52,011 bases of DNA, taken from the IMG/VR virus record IMGVR_UViG_3300030372_001232, positions 1 to 52,011 of that record. One strand, 5' to 3'. Positions 8,826 to 29,415 of this stretch are shown here, in pieces. The notes under the pieces were generated by a model. It did no database searches and was not told the DNA's origin. It was given only the letters and a program-made list of their open reading frames with translations. The position numbers were made by a program, and so were the translations under genes. Numbering within the stretch: position 1 is the first letter of the stretch; each line of letters opens with the position of its first letter. The stretch comes from a virus (taxonomy: Duplodnaviria > Caudoviricetes).

Positions 8826-11800
8826 ATGCCTTTAGAAATTAAATCTTTTGAGGGAGACATACAATCTCTTCCTCAAGCAAATATATCAGAACAACCACAA
8901 TCTCTTGTTCAAGCTTATGAACCTAGTGAAACTAGAAAAGCACAATATGGTGCTGCTAAAGAAACAATGGTTCTTGGCAGTGCTTGGAGAATGTTTAAAG
9001 CTGGAACTGGTTTTGGTACAGAGGGTGATACGTTTTCTGAGCGTCGTGAAGATGCTTATAACCAGCATATGGAAGAAGTTTTTGAAGCTTACCCTGAATT
9101 TAGAAGCGGTGCTTATGATAATGATGTTTCTGTTTTTGCTGGTCAAATGGGCACAATTATAGCTGACCCTATTCTTTGGATTCCTTGGATAGGTTGGGGT
9201 GGTAAAGCTTATAAAGCAGGACAAGTTAGTATAAAAGCTGGACAAGCTGCTCTTGCTACTGGTCAAAAAGTTAAAGGGGGTGCTAATATTGCTTTAGGTG
9301 TAGGTAAATCTGGGGCAGCTTTAGCGGCTCTAGGTGGTGGAACTGCAGGAGCTGACTTAGGTTTAAGAATGTTAGACCAAGAAGGAAGAGTAGACCCTAA
9401 AACATGGGCAACAGGAACTGCATTAGGTGCGGCTTTTTCTCCTGCATTTGCAGCTTTAGGCATAGGTGCTAGAGCAGGTATAAATAAAGTATTTCCTACT
9501 TTGTTTTCTAATAAAAGTATTGCAGATGATGTAATGAAAACATCTCTTGGTGAAATAAATAAAAGAAATAAAACTTCTAATTTATCTTTTGAAAAACTTT
9601 CTGAGATAGCTAAGAATCCAGTCATTCAATCTGCAATAAAATCTATTCAAGATAACACTATTGAGTTTAGAAACTATCAACAACTTACAAAAATTTTAGA
9701 CCAAGTAGGTTTAAACAAACAAACGTTAAAAGAATTACGAAAAAAACTAAAAGAAACTCCACTTAATAAAACTAGGTCTTTTAAAGTTTTTGACGAAAGA
9801 GCTAAAGTTATAAAAGAAATAGCAGATATAGAAGAGTTACTAAATGTTAAAATTAAAAATACTTCTATTAGTAAAATAACTAAACTAACGGATATTACTT
9901 TAGGAAGAGCAGAAAAAGAATTAAAATTAGAAATAGCTGACAACTATAGAAAAGCTACACAAGCTCTTACATCAGCTAACTCAGAATATATAGCAGCAAT
10001 AACAGAAGAAATTTATAAAAAAGGTGGTGCAGCAGCTCTTACTGATAGAATAATGAGAGGTATTTTAGCAAGTACTGTTTACCCTACATTCGGTGGAGTT
10101 ATTGGAGCTACTTATGGAATAATGTCAGAGGCTGATGATGATACTGCATCTTCTGCACTTTTAGGTGCTACTATTATGGGAGCTTATAGACTTATCGGAC
10201 AACGAAATATAATACCTAAACAAGTAAATGATGGAATATTTAATAAAATAATTAATCAAAAATTAAACAATTTTTTATGGCAAATTAAAAGAGGTCCTGC
10301 TATGACTACAGCTACAAGAGTAGAAGCTCGTGGTCCTGTTATGAAAAGATTTTCTAATTTATTATTTCATAGTTTTAAAGGTGGGACTAGAAGTGTAGAA
10401 CAAAAAGCTGGTGAAACCAAAGATGCTTTTAAAGCTTTAATATATGCTGAAGGTGGTATATTAGATGAAAGAACTTATAGTAATGTTTTAGTTCAACAAG
10501 TATCTAATAATATAGTTAGAGGAGCAAAGAAAAATAGTGTATTTCAAATAACTGAAGATGGTGGTAAAACTTTTAAATCTGTCAGTATAAAAGATTTAAT
10601 TAAACAAGACGAATTAAATAATACTACTGTAGTTAAAGATGCTTTTGAAGTAGCTAAAAAAACAAAATCTTTTTTAAGAGTACATAAAAAATATTTAGAA
10701 GATGCTGGTTTTGATATAAAAGAAGTTTTAACTGATTATTTTCCTAGAGTATATAACTTAAATTATATAGCACAAAATCAAGATGCATTTATAGATGATG
10801 TAGCTAGAGTTTTATTAAACAAAAATAAAGGTAAGGGAGGCATAGCCACTTACAGAGAAGAAGCTCAAAATATATTTAATAAGCTAATGAAAGTAGACTA
10901 TGATAATGTAATAAAAGATGTAGGATTACTTTCAGGAACAAAAGGTTCTAAAACTATATCGGGTTTTAAACTTCCATTAAGTGAACATGTGGAGCTTGAT
11001 AGATTAATAAAAGGAACATTTGATGAAGTAGAAGGTCCTCTTAGTAAATACTTTATAAATGATATTAGTTTTGTTCTTAATAACATGGTATCTAAATCTA
11101 CAAAGTCAGTAGAGTTTGCTAAAGTTTTTGGCGTTGATGGTAGAGGTCTAAGTTTACTTTTAGATGACCTATCTGAACAATATGTAAAACAAGGATATAA
11201 ACCAGGTGTTCTTTCTGGTTATCAAAAATCAGATTTAAAAGCAGTTAGAGATTCTATTAATGCTTTTTTTGGAAGACATGGAAATGAGTCTATTCAAGCC
11301 GCAAGAACAATTGCAGGTTTAACTTCTTTTCTTACTAACACAAGATTAATGGGAACTGTAGCTCTTGCAAACTTAGGTGATATAGTACAAGCTTTTAGTA
11401 ATAGTTATTACTTTAGTACATGGATGAAAGGGGTAGCAGCTACTCCATTCTTACCTAGAAGGTTACCATTTAGTAAAGTTCCTTTAAAACAAACTGACCA
11501 ACCTGTTGACATTTTATATATGCAACATGACAATGTAGCACGACAAGCTTTAAATAAATTAGGAGCTTCTGCGTTTGTTCAAGAGGCTGACCCAGGAAGA
11601 GTTTTAAAAGCTATATCTAGAGGTAATGAATATTTTTTTAAAGCTGTAGGATTAGAAGATGTTACTTTATTAGGTAGAAGATTTGCTTATAACTTTGGAG
11701 CTATTGATGGAATAAATTTAGCTAAAGATGTGGCTAGATTAGTTGCTAAAGAAGGAAAAAGTTTAGAAGATTTAATACGTTCTTCAACTTTTGCAGGTAG

Positions 11801-13343
11801 AAAAGCTAGAAAACTATATACAAGATTAGCTGACTCTGGTATGGCTAAAGTAGATAGCACAGGAAAAATAATTAATTTAGATGAAATAGCTAAACTTGCT
11901 ACTTTTAAAAGCTGGAGAGAAGCAAAACTTGATGAAGTTGGTCTAAGATTAATGAATCAATCTGGTAGAGCATCTATGGATAGAGATGCTATTATTCCTG
12001 CAATAGGTAATCGTTTACTATTTACTCAAACTAGAAATCCTCTTTTAAGATTAATAGGACAGTTTAGTTCTTGGGCACAAGCAAAATCTTCTCAAACAAA
12101 CGCATTACTTCAAAGAATTGAAAAAGGAGATGCTAAGTTAGCAACAGGAATGCTTATGGCTCTTCCTGTTTATAGTGCCATACATCAACTTAGAAGATAT
12201 ATAAAAAATGGATTTGAAGCAGAAGACACTAGACCTGTAGACGCTTTTGCTGATGGGGTAATTCTATCAGGTAATCCTGGTTGGGTAGCTTCTCAACTAT
12301 ATAGTTTTACAACTTATAATCCTAGAGAACCTTTAAATTTTTTTCCAGGATATGAATCTATATCAGATACTTTTTCTGCGGCAAAAGATTTAGGAAGTGG
12401 TAGACCTTTTAGAGAAGAAGGTGCTCTTCAAGATTACGTGTTAGAGTACGTGGATAAATTAAATTTATGGTTTATACCCCCAGAAATAAGAGACTTAGCA
12501 GTAAAAGTAGCTCCTGAATATTTATGGTGGCTTAATTATAACCCACTAGTAGACAGAAAGTTTGATGTGAGTCCTGAAAGTTTTGGTTTAGATTTTGGTG
12601 GTAGTGATATTCAAACACCTTTTGAATTTAATTTGGGAGGAGTAGTAGGTAAAGCCGTAAGTAAAACTTTAACTGATGTAGCTAAAAAATCATCTAAAAA
12701 AACTGATGATGTTTTATTAGGAGACCCAGCTAAAACTCAAATAACAACTACTTCTAATACTTATGATAAATACGCAGCTTTAATAAATGAGGTGGGTATA
12801 AATACAAAAAATTATGAAGCTGTTAATATTTTAGATTATGGTTCTGGTTTAGGATTGGGTTCTAAAATTTTAGGAGAGGTGGGAAATGTTAAAAGTTTTG
12901 AGCCATATGTTAATGCTAGCAGAATAAATAAATTAAACGGTAAATTACCTGATTATACAGAGGTAAAAGATTTAATCAAAAAAGAATCTAAAACAAAATT
13001 TAATGCTATAGTTAGTCATGCTGTTTTAAATGTAGTTGAAGATATTAAAGTAAGGTCTTCAATAGTAAAGAATATAGCTTCGTTATTAGATGATGAAGGA
13101 ATAGCTATTATAAATACAAGACCTGCTATTAGTGGAGCAAACAAAAGATATAAAGATGGTTTTTTAATGGGTAGCGGTAAAAACGTAACTTTTCAAAAAC
13201 CTTTTTCTCAAAAAGAATTAATTAAATTTATTCAAAAAACTTTAGGTAGTTCATATAATGTAATTAAAGTTCCAGAAAAATATAAAATATCTGGTTCTAA
13301 TGTTTTAATAAAAAGGAATATAAGTAATGTTATCAATGAGTAG
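8826..13343 (+). CDS. Large internal virion (ejection) protein with a C-terminal SAM-dependent methyltransferase domain
   Basis: 1505 aa with Gly/Ala hydrophobic segments. The C-terminal part has ILDYGSGLG (motif I), KSFEPY and IVSHAVLNVV. Confidence 0.7.
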   Translation: MPLEIKSFEGDIQSLPQANISEQPQSLVQAYEPSETRKAQYGAAKETMVLGSAWRMFKAGTGFGTEGDTFSERREDAYNQHMEEVFEAYPEFRSGAYDNDVSVFAGQMGTIIADPILWIPWIGWGGKAYKAGQVSIKAGQAALATGQKVKGGANIALGVGKSGAALAALGGGTAGADLGLRMLDQEGRVDPKTWATGTALGAAFSPAFAALGIGARAGINKVFPTLFSNKSIADDVMKTSLGEINKRNKTSNLSFEKLSEIAKNPVIQSAIKSIQDNTIEFRNYQQLTKILDQVGLNKQTLKELRKKLKETPLNKTRSFKVFDERAKVIKEIADIEELLNVKIKNTSISKITKLTDITLGRAEKELKLEIADNYRKATQALTSANSEYIAAITEEIYKKGGAAALTDRIMRGILASTVYPTFGGVIGATYGIMSEADDDTASSALLGATIMGAYRLIGQRNIIPKQVNDGIFNKIINQKLNNFLWQIKRGPAMTTATRVEARGPVMKRFSNLLFHSFKGGTRSVEQKAGETKDAFKALIYAEGGILDERTYSNVLVQQVSNNIVRGAKKNSVFQITEDGGKTFKSVSIKDLIKQDELNNTTVVKDAFEVAKKTKSFLRVHKKYLEDAGFDIKEVLTDYFPRVYNLNYIAQNQDAFIDDVARVLLNKNKGKGGIATYREEAQNIFNKLMKVDYDNVIKDVGLLSGTKGSKTISGFKLPLSEHVELDRLIKGTFDEVEGPLSKYFINDISFVLNNMVSKSTKSVEFAKVFGVDGRGLSLLLDDLSEQYVKQGYKPGVLSGYQKSDLKAVRDSINAFFGRHGNESIQAARTIAGLTSFLTNTRLMGTVALANLGDIVQAFSNSYYFSTWMKGVAATPFLPRRLPFSKVPLKQTDQPVDILYMQHDNVARQALNKLGASAFVQEADPGRVLKAISRGNEYFFKAVGLEDVTLLGRRFAYNFGAIDGINLAKDVARLVAKEGKSLEDLIRSSTFAGRKARKLYTRLADSGMAKVDSTGKIINLDEIAKLATFKSWREAKLDEVGLRLMNQSGRASMDRDAIIPAIGNRLLFTQTRNPLLRLIGQFSSWAQAKSSQTNALLQRIEKGDAKLATGMLMALPVYSAIHQLRRYIKNGFEAEDTRPVDAFADGVILSGNPGWVASQLYSFTTYNPREPLNFFPGYESISDTFSAAKDLGSGRPFREEGALQDYVLEYVDKLNLWFIPPEIRDLAVKVAPEYLWWLNYNPLVDRKFDVSPESFGLDFGGSDIQTPFEFNLGGVVGKAVSKTLTDVAKKSSKKTDDVLLGDPAKTQITTTSNTYDKYAALINEVGINTKNYEAVNILDYGSGLGLGSKILGEVGNVKSFEPYVNASRINKLNGKLPDYTEVKDLIKKESKTKFNAIVSHAVLNVVEDIKVRSSIVKNIASLLDDEGIAIINTRPAISGANKRYKDGFLMGSGKNVTFQKPFSQKELIKFIQKTLGSSYNVIKVPEKYKISGSNVLIKRNISNVINE

Positions 13344-14640
13344 TAAAAAATTTCTATCAGAATTTATAAGAGGTTTGTTTAATAAAAACTCTGTGGAGCA
13401 AACAAATGAAAATTTTCCTGTTCGCCCTGCATCTACCACTCCTTCTTCTAATCAAAATTTTCCTGTTCGACCTGCATCTCTTCCTCTTGCTGAAGAATCT
13501 CCCCCTGTTTTTGAAGAAGTTTTAAAAGAAGCAGAAAGCTCTAATAACTATCAAGCTGTAAATCCTCAAGGATACATGGGAGCATTTCAATTTGGTGAAG
13601 CTAGATTACAAGATTTTAAAGATGCAAAAGACAAAGATTTTTCTAAAGAAGAATTTTTAAAAAATAAAGAATTACAAAACGAAGTGTTTGATTGGCACAC
13701 TAATGATATTAAAAAATATATTAAAGATAGAAAATTAGATAAGTTTATAGGACAAGAAATACAAGGAAATACTGTGACTATGGACGGTTTAGTAGCTGTA
13801 GCTCATTTAGGTGGTAAGTTTGGCATGAGAAAATTTTTAGAAACTAATGGAGAATATAACCCTAGTGATTCTAATGAAGTAAAACTTTCTGATTATTTAG
13901 TTAGATTTGGAAATAGTGAAATGGGTAGACTTGGTTTTAGATTTGGAGGAGGAGCTGATGCAGGTGCAGGAAGTCTTTCAGGTGATAGAGGTTTTGGAGC
14001 TGGAGTAAGTAAGGATGTTAGAGATAGAATAGGAAATAAAGAAAGACAAAAAGATAAAAACACTGGTAAATTTGACTCGACTCCTAAAGCAGGACCAAAC
14101 ACAGTTGTTGGTAATCCTGGAGAGCAACAACGGCAATATGAATCAGAACTTAAAAGATTAGAAAAGATACAAAAAGAAGCAGAAGAAAGATATCAAAAAC
14201 AATTACAAACTGATAACCGTTTGAAATTGGAGTTTCTACTGCGAAGAAAAGAAAGACGTGACAGGTCTGCTGGAAGTAACACTACTCCATCTAACGCACC
14301 GTCAGGTTTTGGTCCTTTATTTGATAGTAGCTATCTAGGTCATGGTGTTTATCTAGACCCTAATTCTTCAATATATAATCCTAAATATTTTGAAACATAT
14401 GGATTTAGTGGTTCTAATTTAAACATGGCAGAGCAAGCAGAGATAACTAAAAAAGGAGTACAAGAAGATAAATTTACTGGTGAAACCAGCATCATAGATG
14501 ATATTAAAGATACTGTATCAAGTTTAACAACTTTTGATACTCCTGTTGGAGAGCTTAAGATAAAGCCTAGTACATCAGAATTAAAAGCAACACTTAGTTT
14601 TAAAAAGGGCGGTCTGTTAGATAGAAGCTCTAAAAAATAA
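13327..14640 (+). CDS. Virion-associated lysozyme-like / lytic transglycosylase domain protein
   Basis: AESSNNYQAVNPQGYMGAFQFG (catalytic ES and GxxQF) and VAHLGG, then a low-complexity C-terminal region ending FKKGGLLDR. Confidence 0.7.
   Translation: MLSMSSKKFLSEFIRGLFNKNSVEQTNENFPVRPASTTPSSNQNFPVRPASLPLAEESPPVFEEVLKEAESSNNYQAVNPQGYMGAFQFGEARLQDFKDAKDKDFSKEEFLKNKELQNEVFDWHTNDIKKYIKDRKLDKFIGQEIQGNTVTMDGLVAVAHLGGKFGMRKFLETNGEYNPSDSNEVKLSDYLVRFGNSEMGRLGFRFGGGADAGAGSLSGDRGFGAGVSKDVRDRIGNKERQKDKNTGKFDSTPKAGPNTVVGNPGEQQRQYESELKRLEKIQKEAEERYQKQLQTDNRLKLEFLLRRKERRDRSAGSNTTPSNAPSGFGPLFDSSYLGHGVYLDPNSSIYNPKYFETYGFSGSNLNMAEQAEITKKGVQEDKFTGETSIIDDIKDTVSSLTTFDTPVGELKIKPSTSELKATLSFKKGGLLDRSSKK
13409..13479 (+). 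repeat. 26-bp direct repeat encoding NFPVRPAS twice
   Basis: aaaattttcctgttcg(c/a)cctgcatct at 13409-13434 and 13454-13479. Confidence 0.85.
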
Positions 14641-14722: not shown

Positions 14723-14751
14723 AACTTGCTTAATGAAAGGAGTTAATTATG
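14723..14751 (+). promoter_or_regulatory. ROSE-like RNA thermometer hairpin over the hsp20 Shine-Dalgarno sequence
   Basis: AACUUGCUU-aauga-AAGGAGUU. The U(U/C)GCU motif pairs with AGGA, leaving a bulged G. Confidence 0.6.
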
Positions 14752-15186
14752 AACCTACCTACAAATAGAAGAGGTCTCGTATTCAACGCAGACCCATTTA
14801 AAAACTTAACAGTTGGATTCGATTCATTGTTCGACCAACTATCTTCACTGTCAGACTTTGAAGCACCGAGTTATCCGCCTTACAACATTCGTAAGATTGG
14901 TAATGATGGTTACGAACTTGAGATGGCTTTAGCTGGATTCAGTAAAAGTGATGTCAATGTAGAAGTAAAAGAAGATACATTAACTGTATCAGCTTCAAAA
15001 GAAGGTAAAGATGAAGAGGATAGTTTTCTTCACAGAGGAATAGCTAAAAGGTCTTTCACTCGTAAGTGGACTTTAGCAGAACATCTTGAAGTAAAAGATG
15101 CTGAATTGAAAGATGGTATTCTTTTAATTAAGATGAAACTCAATCTTCCAGAAGAGAAGAAAGCTAAAACAATAAAAGTAAAATAA
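14749..15186 (+). CDS. hsp20: Small heat-shock protein, Hsp20/IbpA family
   Basis: VGFDSLF, SYPPYNI, LAGFSK, FLHRGIAKRSFTR and AELKDGIL motifs. Confidence 0.95.
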   Translation: MNLPTNRRGLVFNADPFKNLTVGFDSLFDQLSSLSDFEAPSYPPYNIRKIGNDGYELEMALAGFSKSDVNVEVKEDTLTVSASKEGKDEEDSFLHRGIAKRSFTRKWTLAEHLEVKDAELKDGILLIKMKLNLPEEKKAKTIKVK

Positions 15187-15807: not shown

Positions 15808-16031
15808 TTTGGATATTGTCAGCGATGCTTTGGTACACAGATGTAGAACAACCAAAGTATTCAGATTATAATGTTCAAGTATTCGAGACACGAGAAGAGT
15901 GTCACGATTATTTATTCTGGAATCAAGCTAAAATAGTAACTGAACTAGCACTTGCTCACGGAATGGAAGACGGCAAAGCTTTAAAAACTTGGGCGTTTTT
16001 CTGTGAAAATAGGAAGTTACAAGAAGTCTAA
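15804..16031 (+). CDS. Hypothetical protein
   Basis: 75 aa with FETREEC...C. Last gene of the plus arm; its stop overlaps the stop of the convergent gene. Confidence 0.6.
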   Translation: MIWILSAMLWYTDVEQPKYSDYNVQVFETREECHDYLFWNQAKIVTELALAHGMEDGKALKTWAFFCENRKLQEV

Positions 16032-16408
16032 GGATTTAACCACTCTTTTATGTTGTCTCTGGTATAAATAAAATTATCAGAGACAGCAAGATGTGGCTCT
16101 TCTGGGTATAAAAACATAATACATTTCTCATTTACATCTTTACTTATTTTTATTTCTGCAGGTTTATATCCTGCTCCTATCTCTAACAAATGAACACTCC
16201 GTTCTATATCTCCTTTTAATTTATAAGCTTCACCTTTAATTTTATATCCTGGTTCTTTTCTATATACAATAGGAAAACAACCATGAGAAAAATCCTTTAT
16301 ATCAAAATCACTGTGTAAAGTTTCACACTCTCCTATAAACTCTGACTCTTCTAGAATCCAGTTTAGTCTGTGGTTTTTCTTTAATGTTCCGTATACAAAA
16401 TATATCAT
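16028..16408 (-). CDS. Gamma-glutamylcyclotransferase (AIG2/GGCT-like)
   Basis: YFVYGTLKKNHRLN signature, plus IKGEAY and LLEIGAGY. Confidence 0.85.
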   Translation of the reverse strand: MIYFVYGTLKKNHRLNWILEESEFIGECETLHSDFDIKDFSHGCFPIVYRKEPGYKIKGEAYKLKGDIERSVHLLEIGAGYKPAEIKISKDVNEKCIMFLYPEEPHLAVSDNFIYTRDNIKEWLNP

Positions 16409-28056: not shown

Positions 28057-29415
28057 TTAGCCATTACTTACACTATTGAATTGTCTTGATACATTTCTGC
28101 TAGGTGTACCAAGTACATATCCGTTAGTAATTAACCAACTCCAAAAATTAGAGTACTCACTTCTATTTTCTGGTTTCCTAATATAAGATAGAAAAGATTT
28201 ATAACTTAAACTTTGCTCTCTCATAGAAGATTGTTTTAAATAATGTACTAAAGCATCAGTAAATTCTAATGCTCTCATAAAGCCATGCTCTGATACATTA
28301 CTTTTAAATATTCTTAACTCTACTGTTTTTGATGGTACTGTATTGACCGCCTCGTATCTATCATCACTTCTATATTGACCATCAGATATCTTTTTAGTTT
28401 CTGATTTACACCAACGACCCATTGAACGACCCGCAATATCTTCAATAAATCTAGCATTTTTCTTATCATTAATAAACACTAGCAATTTACCAACCTCCAA
28501 TGGTGTTAATGCTTTCTTATTAATATGTATATGTAGCCCCGCACAACTTGTATTCCAACCTTTAACATAAGTACTCCCATTTTCATCAGTCCAATAATCA
28601 CTATTAAACATTTGACTAAACCTATCTTTTAAAAACTTATATGTACATGGAGCTGTAGTAATCTCAAAGCCACCATTACCCTCATCAAGTGACCCATCTT
28701 TTTTACATTTGAACCAACTCCCATTGTATTCGTGTAAAGTATCAGGGAAATTATCAGGCATTGAATTTCTAGCCATAACCTCCAATTCTACACCATACAA
28801 TAAATCTCTAGTGTTTCTTAAATTTTTATTAATTACTTCATCTTCTCTACATTGTACATCTAATTCATCATGTACAGGGAATGTATAGTTATAACAATAT
28901 CTCTCATGCTCATAACTACAATCTTCATCATAATCATCATTGTATTCCTCTTCATCTCTGCGGGCATCTGCACAAGATGAGCAACTATCATAGTCACCAT
29001 CATAATCATCTGCATCTCTCACTTCATCACAACTATGACAATAGTAGACATAATCTTCATACTCACATACTAGCCATCTCTCAATCTCATAGTATAAATT
29101 ATTGATTGCACTATCTAATTTACTTTCACATTCACGAGCAAGACTATTTCTGTTTGGATTAACAGTATCATATACATTTTCATTATATAAATGTATCTTG
29201 CCTCTAAGGTACTGTAATCTGTTTAGTATTCTTTGATTATCCCAAAAATCTCTACTAATTATATCTTGATATTCTACTGTATCATCAACAAAATGTCCAT
29301 TATTATTAAGTTTATATATCTTAATCAAGTTATATAAATCTCTTCTTTGCCAAACTGAATACTCTTCAAAAAATTCTTTTATCAAAGTATTTCTGTAATT
29401 AAATCGTAAAGTCAT
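28057..29415 (-). CDS. Putative amidoligase (COOH-NH2 ligase, Amidoligase_2-like) with a Cys/acidic N-terminal region
   Basis: YGVELEV, KKDGSL, GFEITTAP, CAGLHIHI, RYEAVN and TVELRIF. CHSC...CSSC lies upstream of the catalytic domain. Confidence 0.85.
   Translation of the reverse strand: MTLRFNYRNTLIKEFFEEYSVWQRRDLYNLIKIYKLNNNGHFVDDTVEYQDIISRDFWDNQRILNRLQYLRGKIHLYNENVYDTVNPNRNSLARECESKLDSAINNLYYEIERWLVCEYEDYVYYCHSCDEVRDADDYDGDYDSCSSCADARRDEEEYNDDYDEDCSYEHERYCYNYTFPVHDELDVQCREDEVINKNLRNTRDLLYGVELEVMARNSMPDNFPDTLHEYNGSWFKCKKDGSLDEGNGGFEITTAPCTYKFLKDRFSQMFNSDYWTDENGSTYVKGWNTSCAGLHIHINKKALTPLEVGKLLVFINDKKNARFIEDIAGRSMGRWCKSETKKISDGQYRSDDRYEAVNTVPSKTVELRIFKSNVSEHGFMRALEFTDALVHYLKQSSMREQSLSYKSFLSYIRKPENRSEYSNFWSWLITNGYVLGTPSRNVSRQFNSVSNG

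What the first reader, a model, noticed from the sequence alone, without database searches (positions are those of the whole stretch)
12627..13343. Methyltransferase cargo fused to the largest ejection protein
Seen: the last 240 or so residues form a Rossmann SAM-binding domain (LDYGSGLG, FEPY, HAVLNVV) appended after an FNLGG junction. Established: phages inject anti-restriction enzymes with their DNA (for example P1 DarB), and methylase domains occur in large polyvalent virion proteins. Inference: the domain is co-ejected and methylates incoming DNA or a host target before any gene expression.
Basis: partly seen in the sequence, partly recalled or inferred. Interest (0 to 1): 0.7.

Follow-up and report, generated by a model that had tools for sequence, protein, structure and literature searches.

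The report
Methyltransferase cassette on pelagiphage ejection-type protein
The tail end of the largest virion-module protein of this marine SAR11-type phage is a genuine methyl-transfer enzyme domain, one of several swappable end-modules (mostly cell-wall cutters), but it does not look like a DNA-adenine methylase and what it methylates is unknown.

Summary
ORF 8826-13343 (1505 aa) ends in a ~205-residue class I SAM-methyltransferase fold (residues ~1297-1500), preceded by a disordered linker that starts at FNLGG (12627-12641). Support: AF2 pLDDT 87, structural Z 15.9 to solved methyltransferases, profile E 8e-8.

The window is a complete HTVC103P-type pelagiphage genome. The ORF lies fourth from the end of its + strand virion-gene block, after 205-aa and 559-aa ORFs. 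That order and size series resemble T7 gp14/15/16. I found no sequence or fold homology to T7 gp16.

In 56 complete homologues the ~1230-aa core is followed by:
- a muralytic domain without methyltransferase: 24
- a methyltransferase, with or without other modules: 14
- a short basic tail only: 12
- unassigned modules: 6

Modules are joined at a recurrent [FY]-x-x-G-G motif, so cargo swapping at the junction is supported.

The "N6-adenine DNA methylase" reading is not supported. There is no (D/N/S)PP(Y/F) motif and no DNA-methylase family hit. The nearest relatives are TehB/UbiG-type enzymes and the uncharacterised dnd-associated TIGR04096.

The family is large (555 representative hits). It is found as standalone phage genes and inside polyvalent proteins.

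Enzyme domains on internal virion proteins are already described (Hardies 2016; Iyer 2017), so this is a new variant of a known kind. Virion presence, ejection and substrate remain untested.

The parts
8826..13343 (+). ORF of 1505 aa: large virion-module protein (ejection/internal-virion-type by context) with a C-terminal methyltransferase module
   Evidence: homologues in HTVC103P/104P/115P and in 80 IMG/VR loci
8826..12521 (+). Conserved core, residues 1-1232, predicted largely alpha-helical
   Evidence: alignment A2 has its invariant columns between residues 1 and 1222; core-end HMM; AF2 of residues 700-1232 is all-helical but low confidence, pLDDT 56
12522..12722 (+). Variable linker, residues 1233-1299, holding the junction motifs LDFGG (12588-12602) and FNLGG (12627-12641) followed by a basic stretch
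   Evidence: dN/dS 0.60 against 0.31 in the core; low pLDDT
12723..13325 (+). Class I SAM-dependent methyltransferase domain, residues 1300-1500
   Evidence: family HMM E 1.4e-59 and 8.9e-62 at 12723-13331
12732..12764 (+). N-terminal family motif KTQ..T..TY (holds the invariant Thr)
12831..12854 (+). Motif I, LDYGSGLG (glycine-rich SAM loop; Asp and second Gly invariant)
12897..12908 (+). FEPY: acidic residue at the end of strand 2 (motif II position)
13017..13037 (+). HAVLNVV: post-strand-4 segment with invariant Asn, in place of the (D/N/S)PP(Y/F) of amino-methyltransferases
13188..13205 (+). TFQKPF: conserved C-terminal family motif (Gln invariant, Lys nearly invariant)
13327..14640 (+). 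Downstream ORF of 437 aa, overlapping the large ORF by 17 nt: lysozyme/transglycosylase-like domain, low-complexity region, and terminal FKKGGLLD (14599-14622). In some relatives these modules are fused to the large protein.
   Evidence: phrog_26675 endolysin 2e-15; blastp to internal parts of the L007 and L009 large proteins, and the same split in L003, L004 and L005
7145..8824 (+). 559-aa ORF directly upstream (T7 gp15-like slot, by position only)
   Evidence: no family hit
6535..7152 (+). 205-aa ORF with one hydrophobic segment (T7 gp14-like slot, by position and size only)
   Evidence: BLASTP to T7 gp14 finds nothing
2637..3092 (+). HlyC-family acyltransferase gene in the + strand virion-gene block, about 5.7 kb upstream of the large ORF
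   Evidence: Pfam HlyC 1.3e-17; an acetyltransferase-like IVP-A slot is described by Hardies 2016

Best explanation
The window is a complete genome of an HTVC103P-type podovirus of SAR11. ORF 8826-13343 is its largest virion-module protein. It has a ~1230-residue helical core that plays the part T7 gp16 plays (internal virion protein, ejected to build the DNA conduit), followed by a C-terminal cassette site.

In this phage the cassette is an intact class I SAM-dependent methyltransferase. It belongs to a large family, found here mostly in phage contexts, related to TehB/UbiG-type enzymes and to the uncharacterised dnd-associated TIGR04096. It is not a (D/N/S)PP(Y/F) amino-methyltransferase.

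Proposed working (inferred): the protein is packed into the head. On infection it is threaded out with the other ejection proteins. The muralytic module, here on the next ORF, cuts peptidoglycan. The methyltransferase module reaches the cytoplasm, the only place with SAM, and methylates a target other than an exocyclic amino group of a DNA base.

Shown here: the fold, conservation of the SAM-binding motifs, purifying selection, modular swapping at an [FY]xxGG junction, and recurrent linkage of this methyltransferase family to muralytic, head-module and polyvalent proteins.

Inferred: packaging, ejection, the compartment where it acts, catalysis and the substrate.
For: Genome identity:
- tblastn hits HTVC103P, HTVC104P and HTVC115P only, for the core.
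- The record is 52,011 b with CheckV completeness 100.

Methyltransferase:
- 7 invariant columns across 48 sequences include the motif I Asp and Gly and the post-strand-4 Asn.
- dN/dS against the 90%-identical relative L003 is 0.16 in the domain, 0.31 in the core and 0.60 in the linker.

Ejection-type role:
- The order 205 aa, 559 aa, 1505 aa lies in the + strand virion-gene block; an HlyC-type acyltransferase gene sits about 3.4 kb upstream of the 205-aa ORF.
- Muralytic Pfam domains of 5 families were found on 25 of 51 C-terminal extensions scanned. Endolysin-type PHROGs were found on 6 more.
- The downstream ORF in L004 hits phrog_342, 'internal virion protein with endolysin domain', at 5e-15.

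Cassette behaviour:
- 14 of 56 complete non-identical homologues carry the methyltransferase, 24 carry a muralytic domain only, and 12 only a short tail.
- The junction motif lies within 90 aa of the core end in 53 of 56. [FY]xxGG occurs at 0.52 per 1000 aa in cores against 4.75 in extensions.
- Two pairs have methyltransferase identity of 95% and 92% against core identity of 51% and 58%.

Family context elsewhere:
- ART-PolyVal, LPD38, LPD22 and SNF2/Sno helicase occur in the same giant proteins.
- CRP-3 gp36 is Hydrolase_2 + methyltransferase + DUF7178, and lies three genes downstream of the portal gene.
- In MJing1 the methyltransferase is a standalone gene between the portal gene and a DUF7178 gene.
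- Myrna gp97 is a large protein two genes upstream of the major head gene.

Against: - There is no detectable homology of the core to T7 gp16: hhalign probability 0.8%, no PHROG hit for the core, and no PDB sequence hit. The core model was too poor for fold search (pLDDT 56).
- I found no virion proteome for any relative.
- In relatives, muralytic (periplasmic) and methyltransferase (cytoplasmic, SAM-needing) modules sit side by side on one chain. That is awkward for a single topology unless the chain is processed or threads stepwise.
- The Pfam score is marginal: 27.6 against 27.
- Fold and profile matches are generic across small-molecule, RNA and protein methyltransferases, so they give no substrate.
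- Only + strand ORFs of 60 aa or more were screened in the loci.
Confidence: 0.6

Rival explanations
1. One reading: the domain is a DNA methyltransferase (N6-adenine type) that is co-ejected and methylates the incoming genome to escape restriction, as proposed for P1 DarB.
For: Methylases delivered with DNA are an established theme (Iyer 2017, passages read). The nearest named NCBIfam family for 32 of 48 family members is 'DNA phosphorothioation-associated putative methyltransferase' TIGR04096, best E 2e-11. Some giant proteins with this domain also carry SNF2/Sno helicases. Conserved Arg and Lys residues could bind phosphate.
Against: No (D/N/S)PP(Y/F/W/H) motif anywhere in the protein. No N6_Mtase, N6_N4_Mtase, D12, Dam, MT-A70 or C5 family at E <= 0.01. 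No DNA methylase appears among the profile or fold matches listed. About 205 residues leave no room for a target-recognition domain. There is no LPD36 or helicase dyad, which defines DarB-type modules. TIGR04096 scores are far below its cut-off (22 against 150 bits) and its own function is only putative.
Confidence: 0.15
2. The module works in the producer cell or inside the procapsid, not after ejection. It could methylate DNA as it is packaged past the internal core, or methylate virion or ejection proteins during assembly. Fusion to the core protein would then simply place it there.
For: The protein is made late in a SAM-containing cytoplasm, which removes the periplasm/SAM difficulty. The family often sits next to portal and head-assembly genes. 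Other enzyme genes, such as the HlyC-type acyltransferase, share this virion-gene block, and Hardies 2016 describes the IVP-A slot as non-structural.
Against: No direct evidence. The family's membership in polyvalent proteins with ART and helicase domains points to action in the newly infected cell. Cassette position varies (before or after muralytic modules), which argues against a fixed structural placement.
Confidence: 0.15
3. The module is catalytically dead or only a ligand-binding or structural plug, or the large protein is a tail-associated lysin carrier that never enters the cell, so no host methylation occurs.
For: The motif IV segment (VLNV) is unusual. The core has no demonstrable IVP-D homology. 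12 of 56 homologues do without any module.
Against: The SAM-loop Asp and Gly, the strand-2 acid, and Asn, Arg and Gln positions are invariant or nearly so over 48 diverse sequences. dN/dS is 0.16. There are 555 representative family members, many of them standalone enzymes of about 200 aa. That pattern is typical of an active enzyme.
Confidence: 0.1

Closest known systems
Internal virion protein D class of podoviruses carrying enzyme domains (T7 gp16 with its transglycosylase; Pseudomonas phage H66 gp60 / F116 with a SAM-methylase site; N4 gp50 virion RNA polymerase), as in Hardies et al. 2016, Virology (PMC4819975; passages read)
   Same: It is the largest protein of the virion-gene block, directly preceded by a ~200-aa and a ~560-aa ORF, with an acyltransferase-like gene about 3.4 kb further upstream. 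It is predicted helical. It hosts muralytic domains and an enzyme that needs a cytoplasmic cofactor, and domain content varies among relatives.
   Different: No detectable sequence or profile similarity to T7 gp16. Hardies' Table 2 lists no IVP-D for the HMO-2011 group. The modules here are C-terminal, whereas T7's transglycosylase is N-terminal. Hardies describes the H66 site as matching DNA methylases, whereas this domain is of the TehB/UbiG/TIGR04096 type. I did not compare it with H66 gp60 directly.
Polyvalent proteins of phages and conjugative elements, including the DarB-type methylase-helicase dyad (Iyer et al. 2017, J Bacteriol, PMC5512222; passages read)
   Same: Unrelated activities are strung on one virion-associated polypeptide. 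Lysozyme domains are common. The same methyltransferase family is found in giant proteins with ART-PolyVal, LPD38, LPD22 and SNF2/Sno helicase domains.
   Different: The passages I read describe the polyvalent methylase as EcoKI/TaqI-like with NPP(Y/F), flanked by LPD36 and a helicase. None of these features is present here. I did not see this family named in the passages returned. The paper's supplementary domain lists could not be read.
Pelagibacter phage HTVC103P gp52, HTVC104P homologue and HTVC115P gp40 (GenBank MN698242, MN698243, MN698247; Zhang et al. preprint 10.1101/2019.12.14.876532, passages read)
   Same: Same protein family and gene order. HTVC103P gp52 is core + FNVGG + methyltransferase + GH24 lysozyme. 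In HTVC104P the tblastn match extends through the methyltransferase module (query residues 361-1497); I did not fetch or annotate that gene.
   Different: About 29-30% identity. The module sets differ: the window has the methyltransferase alone, with the muralytic part on a separate ORF, and HTVC115P has no methyltransferase. All three are annotated 'hypothetical protein'. The preprint passages returned do not mention this domain.
TehB / UbiG / 'type 11' class I SAM methyltransferases, and TIGR04096 (dnd-associated putative methyltransferase)
   Same: Same fold and motifs I and II. These are the best profile hits in the PDB and in NCBIfam.
   Different: Scores are far below every curated cut-off. 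The family has its own signature (KTQ..T..TY, VLNV, TFQKGF). The hits whose source I could check are phage contigs, phage records or virus-only Atlas clusters.

Membership tests
Class I (Rossmann-like, seven-strand) SAM-dependent methyltransferases | Glycine-rich motif I after strand 1 and an acidic residue at the end of strand 2 | tested here: met
   LDYGSGLG with invariant Asp and Gly. FEPY: the acidic residue is Glu or Asp in most of the 24 rows shown (one in two of the 48).
Class I (Rossmann-like, seven-strand) SAM-dependent methyltransferases | Fold: alternating beta/alpha sheet superposable on solved methyltransferases | tested here: met
   AF2 pLDDT 87.0, pTM 0.83. VIA Z 15.9, rmsd 3.2 A, 180 residues aligned to DesVI, and 424 chains at Z >= 8. 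Foldseek E 5e-9, TM about 0.5.
Class I (Rossmann-like, seven-strand) SAM-dependent methyltransferases | Curated family score (Pfam Methyltransf_23 gathering cut-off 27 bits) | tested here: inconclusive
   27.6 bits for the 238-aa piece and 23.3 bits for the whole protein. The family profile against the PDB reaches 7.9e-8.
Class I (Rossmann-like, seven-strand) SAM-dependent methyltransferases | Binds SAM and transfers methyl | not testable with these tools
   Needs biochemistry.
N6-adenine / N4-cytosine DNA amino-methyltransferases (including DarB / EcoKI / TaqI-like) | (D/N/S)PP(Y/F/W) motif after strand 4 | tested here: not met
   A regex finds none in the 1505 aa. The position holds VLNV with an invariant Asn.
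N6-adenine / N4-cytosine DNA amino-methyltransferases (including DarB / EcoKI / TaqI-like) | Match to a DNA-methylase family model | tested here: not met
   Pfam at E <= 0.01 returns only Methyltransf_23, plus a stray Sigma70_r1_1. HMMER filters drop most matches above about 0.1.
N6-adenine / N4-cytosine DNA amino-methyltransferases (including DarB / EcoKI / TaqI-like) | Target-recognition domain, or the LPD36 + SF2-helicase partners of the DarB dyad | tested here: not met
   The domain is about 205 residues and ends the protein. No helicase or LPD family is found on the protein. The dyad is defined in Iyer 2017.
T7 gp16-type internal virion protein D (ejection protein) | Sequence or profile homology to IVP-D | tested here: not met
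   hhalign of A2 against T7 gp16: probability 0.8%, E 0.074. No PHROG hit for the core. A2 profile against the PDB: nothing below E 0.47. A single T7 sequence was used, not a deep IVP-D profile.
T7 gp16-type internal virion protein D (ejection protein) | Position, size and helical nature: largest gene after gp14-like and gp15-like genes in the tail/IVP block | tested here: met
   Order 205 aa, 559 aa, 1505 aa in the + strand virion-gene block, with an acyltransferase-like gene about 3.4 kb upstream. The helical prediction is low confidence.
T7 gp16-type internal virion protein D (ejection protein) | Carries or neighbours a muralytic domain | tested here: met
   28 of 56 complete homologues have one fused (24 without and 4 with the methyltransferase). 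In the window it is on the overlapping next ORF.
T7 gp16-type internal virion protein D (ejection protein) | Present in virions and ejected into the cell | not testable with these tools
   No virion proteome of an HTVC103P-type phage was found.
Polyvalent proteins (Iyer et al. 2017) | Two or more domains of unrelated activity on one polypeptide in a virion or late-gene context | tested here: met
   The window has the core plus the methyltransferase. Relatives have the methyltransferase plus a muralytic domain on one chain.
TIGR04096 dnd-associated putative methyltransferase | Score above the curated cut-off (150 bits) and the full 478-position architecture | tested here: not met
   22.2 bits over model positions 77-152. 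32 of 48 family members hit it, best E 2e-11.

The most novel reading that the evidence does not exclude
The large virion protein is a 'cassette train'. The conserved helical ejection core ends in an [FY]-x-x-G-G junction. Behind it, phages string interchangeable modules, each bounded by the same short motif. The motif is a processing or docking signal that lets periplasmic (muralytic) and cytoplasmic (methyltransferase) modules part ways during infection.

On this reading the methyltransferase belongs to a large, uncharacterised family of virion-delivered enzymes. It would methylate something other than a DNA base amino group, such as a host RNA, a protein, a small molecule or the DNA backbone, in the first moments of infection of the ocean's most abundant bacteria.
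Probability: 0.2. Interest if true: 0.75.

Novelty: new variant of a known kind. Interest (0 to 1): 0.45.

Why it matters
[quoted passage not shown] Yet their largest virion protein is annotated 'hypothetical'.

This work gives that protein a reading: an ejection-type core plus exchangeable end-modules. It gives a clean comparative system, because the cultured phages HTVC103P and HTVC104P carry the methyltransferase and HTVC115P does not. That system can be used to ask what a virion-borne, non-DNA-type methyltransferase does.

The same enzyme family has 555 representative hits at E <= 0.001, 150 of them listed, and it sits in polyvalent proteins. One substrate assignment would therefore annotate many phage genes.

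The [FY]xxGG junction motif is a concrete, testable candidate for how multi-module ejection proteins are built or processed.

Tried and rejected
1. Single-sequence phmmer against the PDB gave only a Rossmann dehydrogenase (1wwk, E 0.0011), which is uninformative.
2. Core against known structures. The A2 profile against the PDB gave nothing. hhalign against T7 gp16 gave probability 0.8%. AF2 of residues 700-1232 with 26 sequences gave pLDDT 56, and Foldseek on it found no match at E <= 0.001. The model is too poor to say anything about the fold.
3. BLASTP of the window's HlyC-like ORF against T7 gp13, and of the 205-aa ORF against T7 gp14, found nothing.
4. I asked whether the HlyC-type acyltransferase gene tracks the terminal FK[KS]GGLLD module, which would suggest lysine acylation of the motif. 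The 2x2 table over 26 evaluable loci was 5/5/6/10, so there is no association. The 6-kb flank is borderline for finding the gene.
5. PADLOC gave only weak, generic hits: PDC-S42 at 0.0052 for the window domain, and mad2 at 2e-6 for one relative.
6. A programmed frameshift joining the 1505-aa ORF to the next ORF is rejected. The stop plus the overlapping ATG, preceded by AGGA, is kept in L003, and a stop followed by a start 2 nt later is kept in L004 and L005.
7. Composition shows no GC anomaly at the module: 0.31 against 0.31-0.32 nearby.
8. A hydrophobicity scan found only one weak segment in the large protein, so I make no membrane-topology claim.
9. The word-indexed homologue search with the domain alone returned only 4 proteins. 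The exhaustive search was needed.
10. The Phi-GT1 podovirus paper (PMC10386132) held none of the six search terms. The dnd-reappraisal paper passages did not discuss TIGR04096-type proteins.
Full report
**What is at the coordinates.** The window holds an ATG-initiated ORF at 8826-13343 (+) of 1505 residues. The finding starts exactly at FNLGG (residues 1268-1272, nt 12627-12641) and runs to the stop. GC content across the region (0.31) does not differ from its surroundings.

**Is it a methyltransferase domain?**

- On its own, the 238-residue piece scores 27.6 bits (E 2.9e-6) on Pfam Methyltransf_23, whose cut-off is 27. The whole protein scores 23.3 bits. That is marginal, so I built better evidence.
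- An exhaustive phmmer search of 1.84 billion cluster representatives found 555 proteins at E <= 0.001, 71 at <= 1e-10 and 6 at <= 1e-30.
- I aligned the window domain with 47 short relatives: 43 taken from the 150 listed and 4 from the word-indexed search. The alignment, A1, has seven invariant columns. These include the Asp and second Gly of motif I, an Asn in VLNV, an Arg, and the Gln of TFQKGF.
- The A1 profile matches solved class I methyltransferases: 3sm3 at 7.9e-8, TehB at 2.5e-7 to 3.6e-7 and UbiG at 4.4e-6. In all, 93 distinct PDB sequences match at E <= 1.
- AlphaFold2 with A1 gave pLDDT 87.0 and pTM 0.83. Only the first ~25 residues, the stretch after FNLGG, fall below 50.
- The model superposes on DesVI (Z 15.9, rmsd 3.2 A over 180 residues), 2p8j, YunM, Trm9 and many others. 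Foldseek puts glycine N-methyltransferase, TylM1 and CypM at E of about 1e-8 with TM about 0.5.
- In the model, LDYGSGLG follows strand 1, FEPY ends strand 2 (the ribose-binding acid) and HAVLNVV follows strand 4.
- Against the 90%-identical relative L003, dN/dS is 0.16 in the domain, 0.31 in the core and 0.60 in the linker. This is a single pair.

The folded domain is about 205 residues, and the remaining ~30 are a flexible linker.

- The protein has no (D/N/S)PP(Y/F/W/H) motif anywhere.
- At E <= 0.01, Pfam returns no DNA-methylase family.
- No DNA methylase appears among the listed profile or fold matches.
- There is no target-recognition domain, and none of the LPD36 or helicase partners that define DarB-type modules (Iyer et al. 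2017, passages read).
- The closest named families are TIGR04096, the 'DNA phosphorothioation-associated putative methyltransferase', and TehB. TIGR04096 is hit by 32 of 48 A1 members (best E 2e-11; the window scores 22 bits against a cut-off of 150). TehB models are hit by 11 of 48.
- The protein-atlas neighbours are virus-only clusters labelled Methyltransf_11/23. The best BFVD matches are unnamed phage proteins.

The family has its own signature: KTQ..T..TY, VLNV and TFQKGF. More distant members carry a PPPENARKTQ lead. The substrate cannot be read from these data.

**What is the large protein?**

- The window is a complete virus record: 52,011 b, CheckV completeness 100, linear, with one methyltransferase copy.
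- It encodes terminase, an SU10-type portal, major capsid, tubular tail proteins and fibres. On the other strand it encodes DNA polymerase, primase/helicase and ribonucleotide reductase.
- tblastn of the large protein finds its core only in Pelagibacter phages HTVC103P, HTVC104P and HTVC115P, at 28-30% identity. In these phages the homologues are annotated 'hypothetical protein'.
- The local gene order is: an HlyC-type acyltransferase gene (2637-3092, Pfam 1.3e-17), then a 417-aa ORF and several small ORFs, then ORFs of 205, 559 and 1505 aa, then a 437-aa lysozyme-like ORF. The 205/559/1505 series parallels T7 genes 14-16 in order and size; the acyltransferase gene lies about 3.4 kb upstream of it rather than directly before it as T7 gene 13 does.
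- Hardies et al. 2016 (passages read) describe such blocks across podoviruses and note an acetyltransferase-like IVP-A slot. [quoted passage not shown] Their examples are the N4 virion RNA polymerase and a SAM-methylase site in H66 gp60. Their Table 2 lists no IVP-D for the HMO-2011 structural group, to which the HTVC103P-type virion module is related (Zhang et al. preprint, passages read).
- I could not show homology of the core to T7 gp16. hhalign gave probability 0.8%. There was no PHROG hit and no PDB sequence hit. A structure model of residues 700-1232 was all-helical but too poor for fold search (pLDDT 56).

The ejection-protein role therefore rests on context, not on demonstrated homology.

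**Comparative anatomy.** The word-indexed search found 11 homologues of 1202-1942 aa with very different C-terminal ends. A scan of IMG/VR returned 80 loci (83 encoded a relative; the best 80 were kept).

I located the end of the conserved core with an HMM, at window residue ~1232, and classified what follows. Among 56 complete, non-identical proteins (the window, HTVC103P, HTVC115P and 53 loci):

| What follows the core | Count |
|---|---|
| Muralytic domain, no methyltransferase | 24 |
| Methyltransferase alone | 4 |
| Methyltransferase plus a muralytic domain | 4 |
| Methyltransferase plus other or unassigned modules | 6 |
| Short basic tail of 26-45 residues only | 12 |
| Unassigned modules | 6 |

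- Pfam found muralytic domains of five families on 25 of 51 extensions scanned: Glucosaminidase 17, Phage_lysozyme 3, SLT 2, Phage_lysozyme2 2 and Pesticin-type 1.
- PHROGs added endolysin-type hits on 6 of 17 further pieces.
- The methyltransferase HMM hit the large ORF in 17 of the 80 loci and hit no other + strand ORF of 60 aa or more. The minus strand was not screened.
- The window's downstream ORF (13327-14640) is a separate gene. It overlaps the large ORF by 17 nt and has an AGGA upstream of its ATG. The same split is kept in L003, L004 and L005. Its modules are fused into the large protein in L007 and L009.
- In L004 the downstream ORF hits phrog_342, 'internal virion protein with endolysin domain', at 5e-15.

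**The junction.**

- A motif [FYLM]-x-x-G-[GD] lies within 90 residues after the core end in 53 of 56 proteins.
- [FY]xxGG occurs at 0.52 per 1000 residues in cores and at 4.75 per 1000 in extensions.
- An [FYLM]xxGG motif lies 10-55 residues upstream of the methyltransferase HMM start in all 14 complete, non-identical cassettes.
- Where another module follows, a further motif comes within a few residues in five cases.
- The motif also sits 6-13 residues before many C-termini, as FK[KS]GGLLDKKRG or FNQGGYVKELTRRLQQRNN. In the window it is FKKGGLLD at 14599-14622.
- It is not part of the methyltransferase family itself.
- Cassette exchange is visible. L007 and L016 share 51% identity in the core but 95% in the methyltransferase. 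L053 and L068 share 58% and 92%. Overall the two identities correlate, r = 0.80.

What the motif does is unexplained. It could be a processing site, a docking peptide or a tolerant linker. It does not track the HlyC-type gene.

**The methyltransferase family elsewhere.** Of 149 representatives examined, only 6 contain this core. By length, 53 are 320 aa or less, 47 are 321-1000 aa, 20 are 1001-2000 aa and 29 exceed 2000 aa.

- Giant members carry ART-PolyVal (3 proteins), LPD38 (2), LPD22 (1) and SNF2 or Strawberry-notch helicase domains (2), among the 19 scanned. They are polyvalent proteins in the sense of Iyer et al. 2017.
- Roseobacter phage CRP-3 gp36 is Hydrolase_2 + methyltransferase + DUF7178, and lies three genes downstream of the portal gene.
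- In Microcystis phage MJing1 the methyltransferase is a 231-aa gene between the SU10-type portal gene and a DUF7178 gene.
- In mycobacteriophage Myrna it lies inside gp97, a 1211-aa protein two genes upstream of the major head gene.

Repeated linkage to muralytic domains, head-module genes and polyvalent proteins is the main argument that this enzyme family travels in virions.

**How it most likely works, and the rivals.** My best reading (0.6) has three parts:

- A virion-packed, ejection-type protein carries an active methyltransferase cassette.
- The cassette acts in the newly infected cytoplasm, the only compartment with SAM.
- Its target is something other than a nucleobase amino group.

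Every step after 'intact fold under purifying selection, modular, recurrently virion-linked' is inference.

One difficulty needs stating. Relatives put muralytic (periplasmic) and methyltransferase (cytoplasmic) modules next to each other on one chain. That needs stepwise threading or processing.

The rivals are:

- DNA methylation for anti-restriction (0.15).
- Action in the producer cell or procapsid (0.15).
- A dead or purely structural module, or a protein that is never ejected (0.1).

**Novelty.** Enzyme domains on internal virion proteins, including a SAM-methylase site, and injected methylases in polyvalent proteins are in print.

I did not find the following in the library: this domain in HTVC103P-type phages, this non-DPPY family as virion cargo, or the [FY]xxGG junction. 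The searches were made, with passages read.

Earlier notes of this scan describe other cassettes on ejection proteins in other genomes. I treated these as leads only.

Verdict: the feature is real. It is a new variant of a known kind, of moderate interest.

Noticed in passing
window 2637-3092 (+): An RTX-toxin-activating lysine acyltransferase family (HlyC) gene sits in the virion-gene block (Pfam 1.3e-17). HTVC115P gp46 is annotated the same way. It may fill the acetyltransferase-like 'IVP-A' slot that Hardies 2016 describes, which raises the question of whether a virion protein is lysine-acylated. BLASTP to T7 gp13 found nothing, and there is no association with the FKKGGLLD tail.
   Followed up: partly
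window 12588-12641 and 14599-14622; loci L003-L082: A recurrent [FY]-x-x-G-[GD]-hydrophobic junction motif bounds the C-terminal modules of this protein family. It is about 9-fold denser in the extensions than in the cores, and its function is unknown.
   Followed up: partly
window 13327-14640 (+): A 437-aa ORF overlaps the large ORF by 17 nt. It has a lysozyme/transglycosylase-like domain (ESSNNY...GAFQFG), a low-complexity middle and a conserved tail. The same modules are fused to the large protein in L007 and L009 but split off in L003, L004 and L005.
   Followed up: yes
window 14749-15186 (+): An Hsp20/alpha-crystallin gene (Pfam 2.7e-18) lies directly after the virion block. It is conserved at the same place in HTVC103P, HTVC115P, L012 and L021.
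   Followed up: no
window 28057-29415 (-) and 16028-16408 (-): An amidoligase-like ORF (phrog_2443, 1.2e-10) and a gamma-glutamyl cyclotransferase-like ORF (phrog_2520, 1.9e-6). These recall the gamma-glutamyl-amide gene set mentioned for phiRIO-1/LUZ24-type podoviruses in the Hardies 2016 introduction.
   Followed up: no
window 37499-38191 (+): A 230-aa ORF matching phrog_3704, labelled 'ferredoxin' (2.8e-30), sits between the portal gene and the scaffold/capsid genes.
   Followed up: no
proteins P0061, P0066, P0085, P0091 and others: Distant members of the methyltransferase family share a conserved proline-rich lead, (D/E)-(L/I)-PPPENA(R/K)KTQ, immediately before the domain. The pelagiphage cassettes have DPAKTQ instead.
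   Followed up: no
L004 10547-12271; L005 8365-10098: In the 50%-identical relatives, the ORF after the methyltransferase-ended large protein matches the T7 gp16-type 'internal virion protein with endolysin domain' (phrog_342, 5e-15). It ends in FK[RK]GGLLDKKRFKKA.
   Followed up: partly
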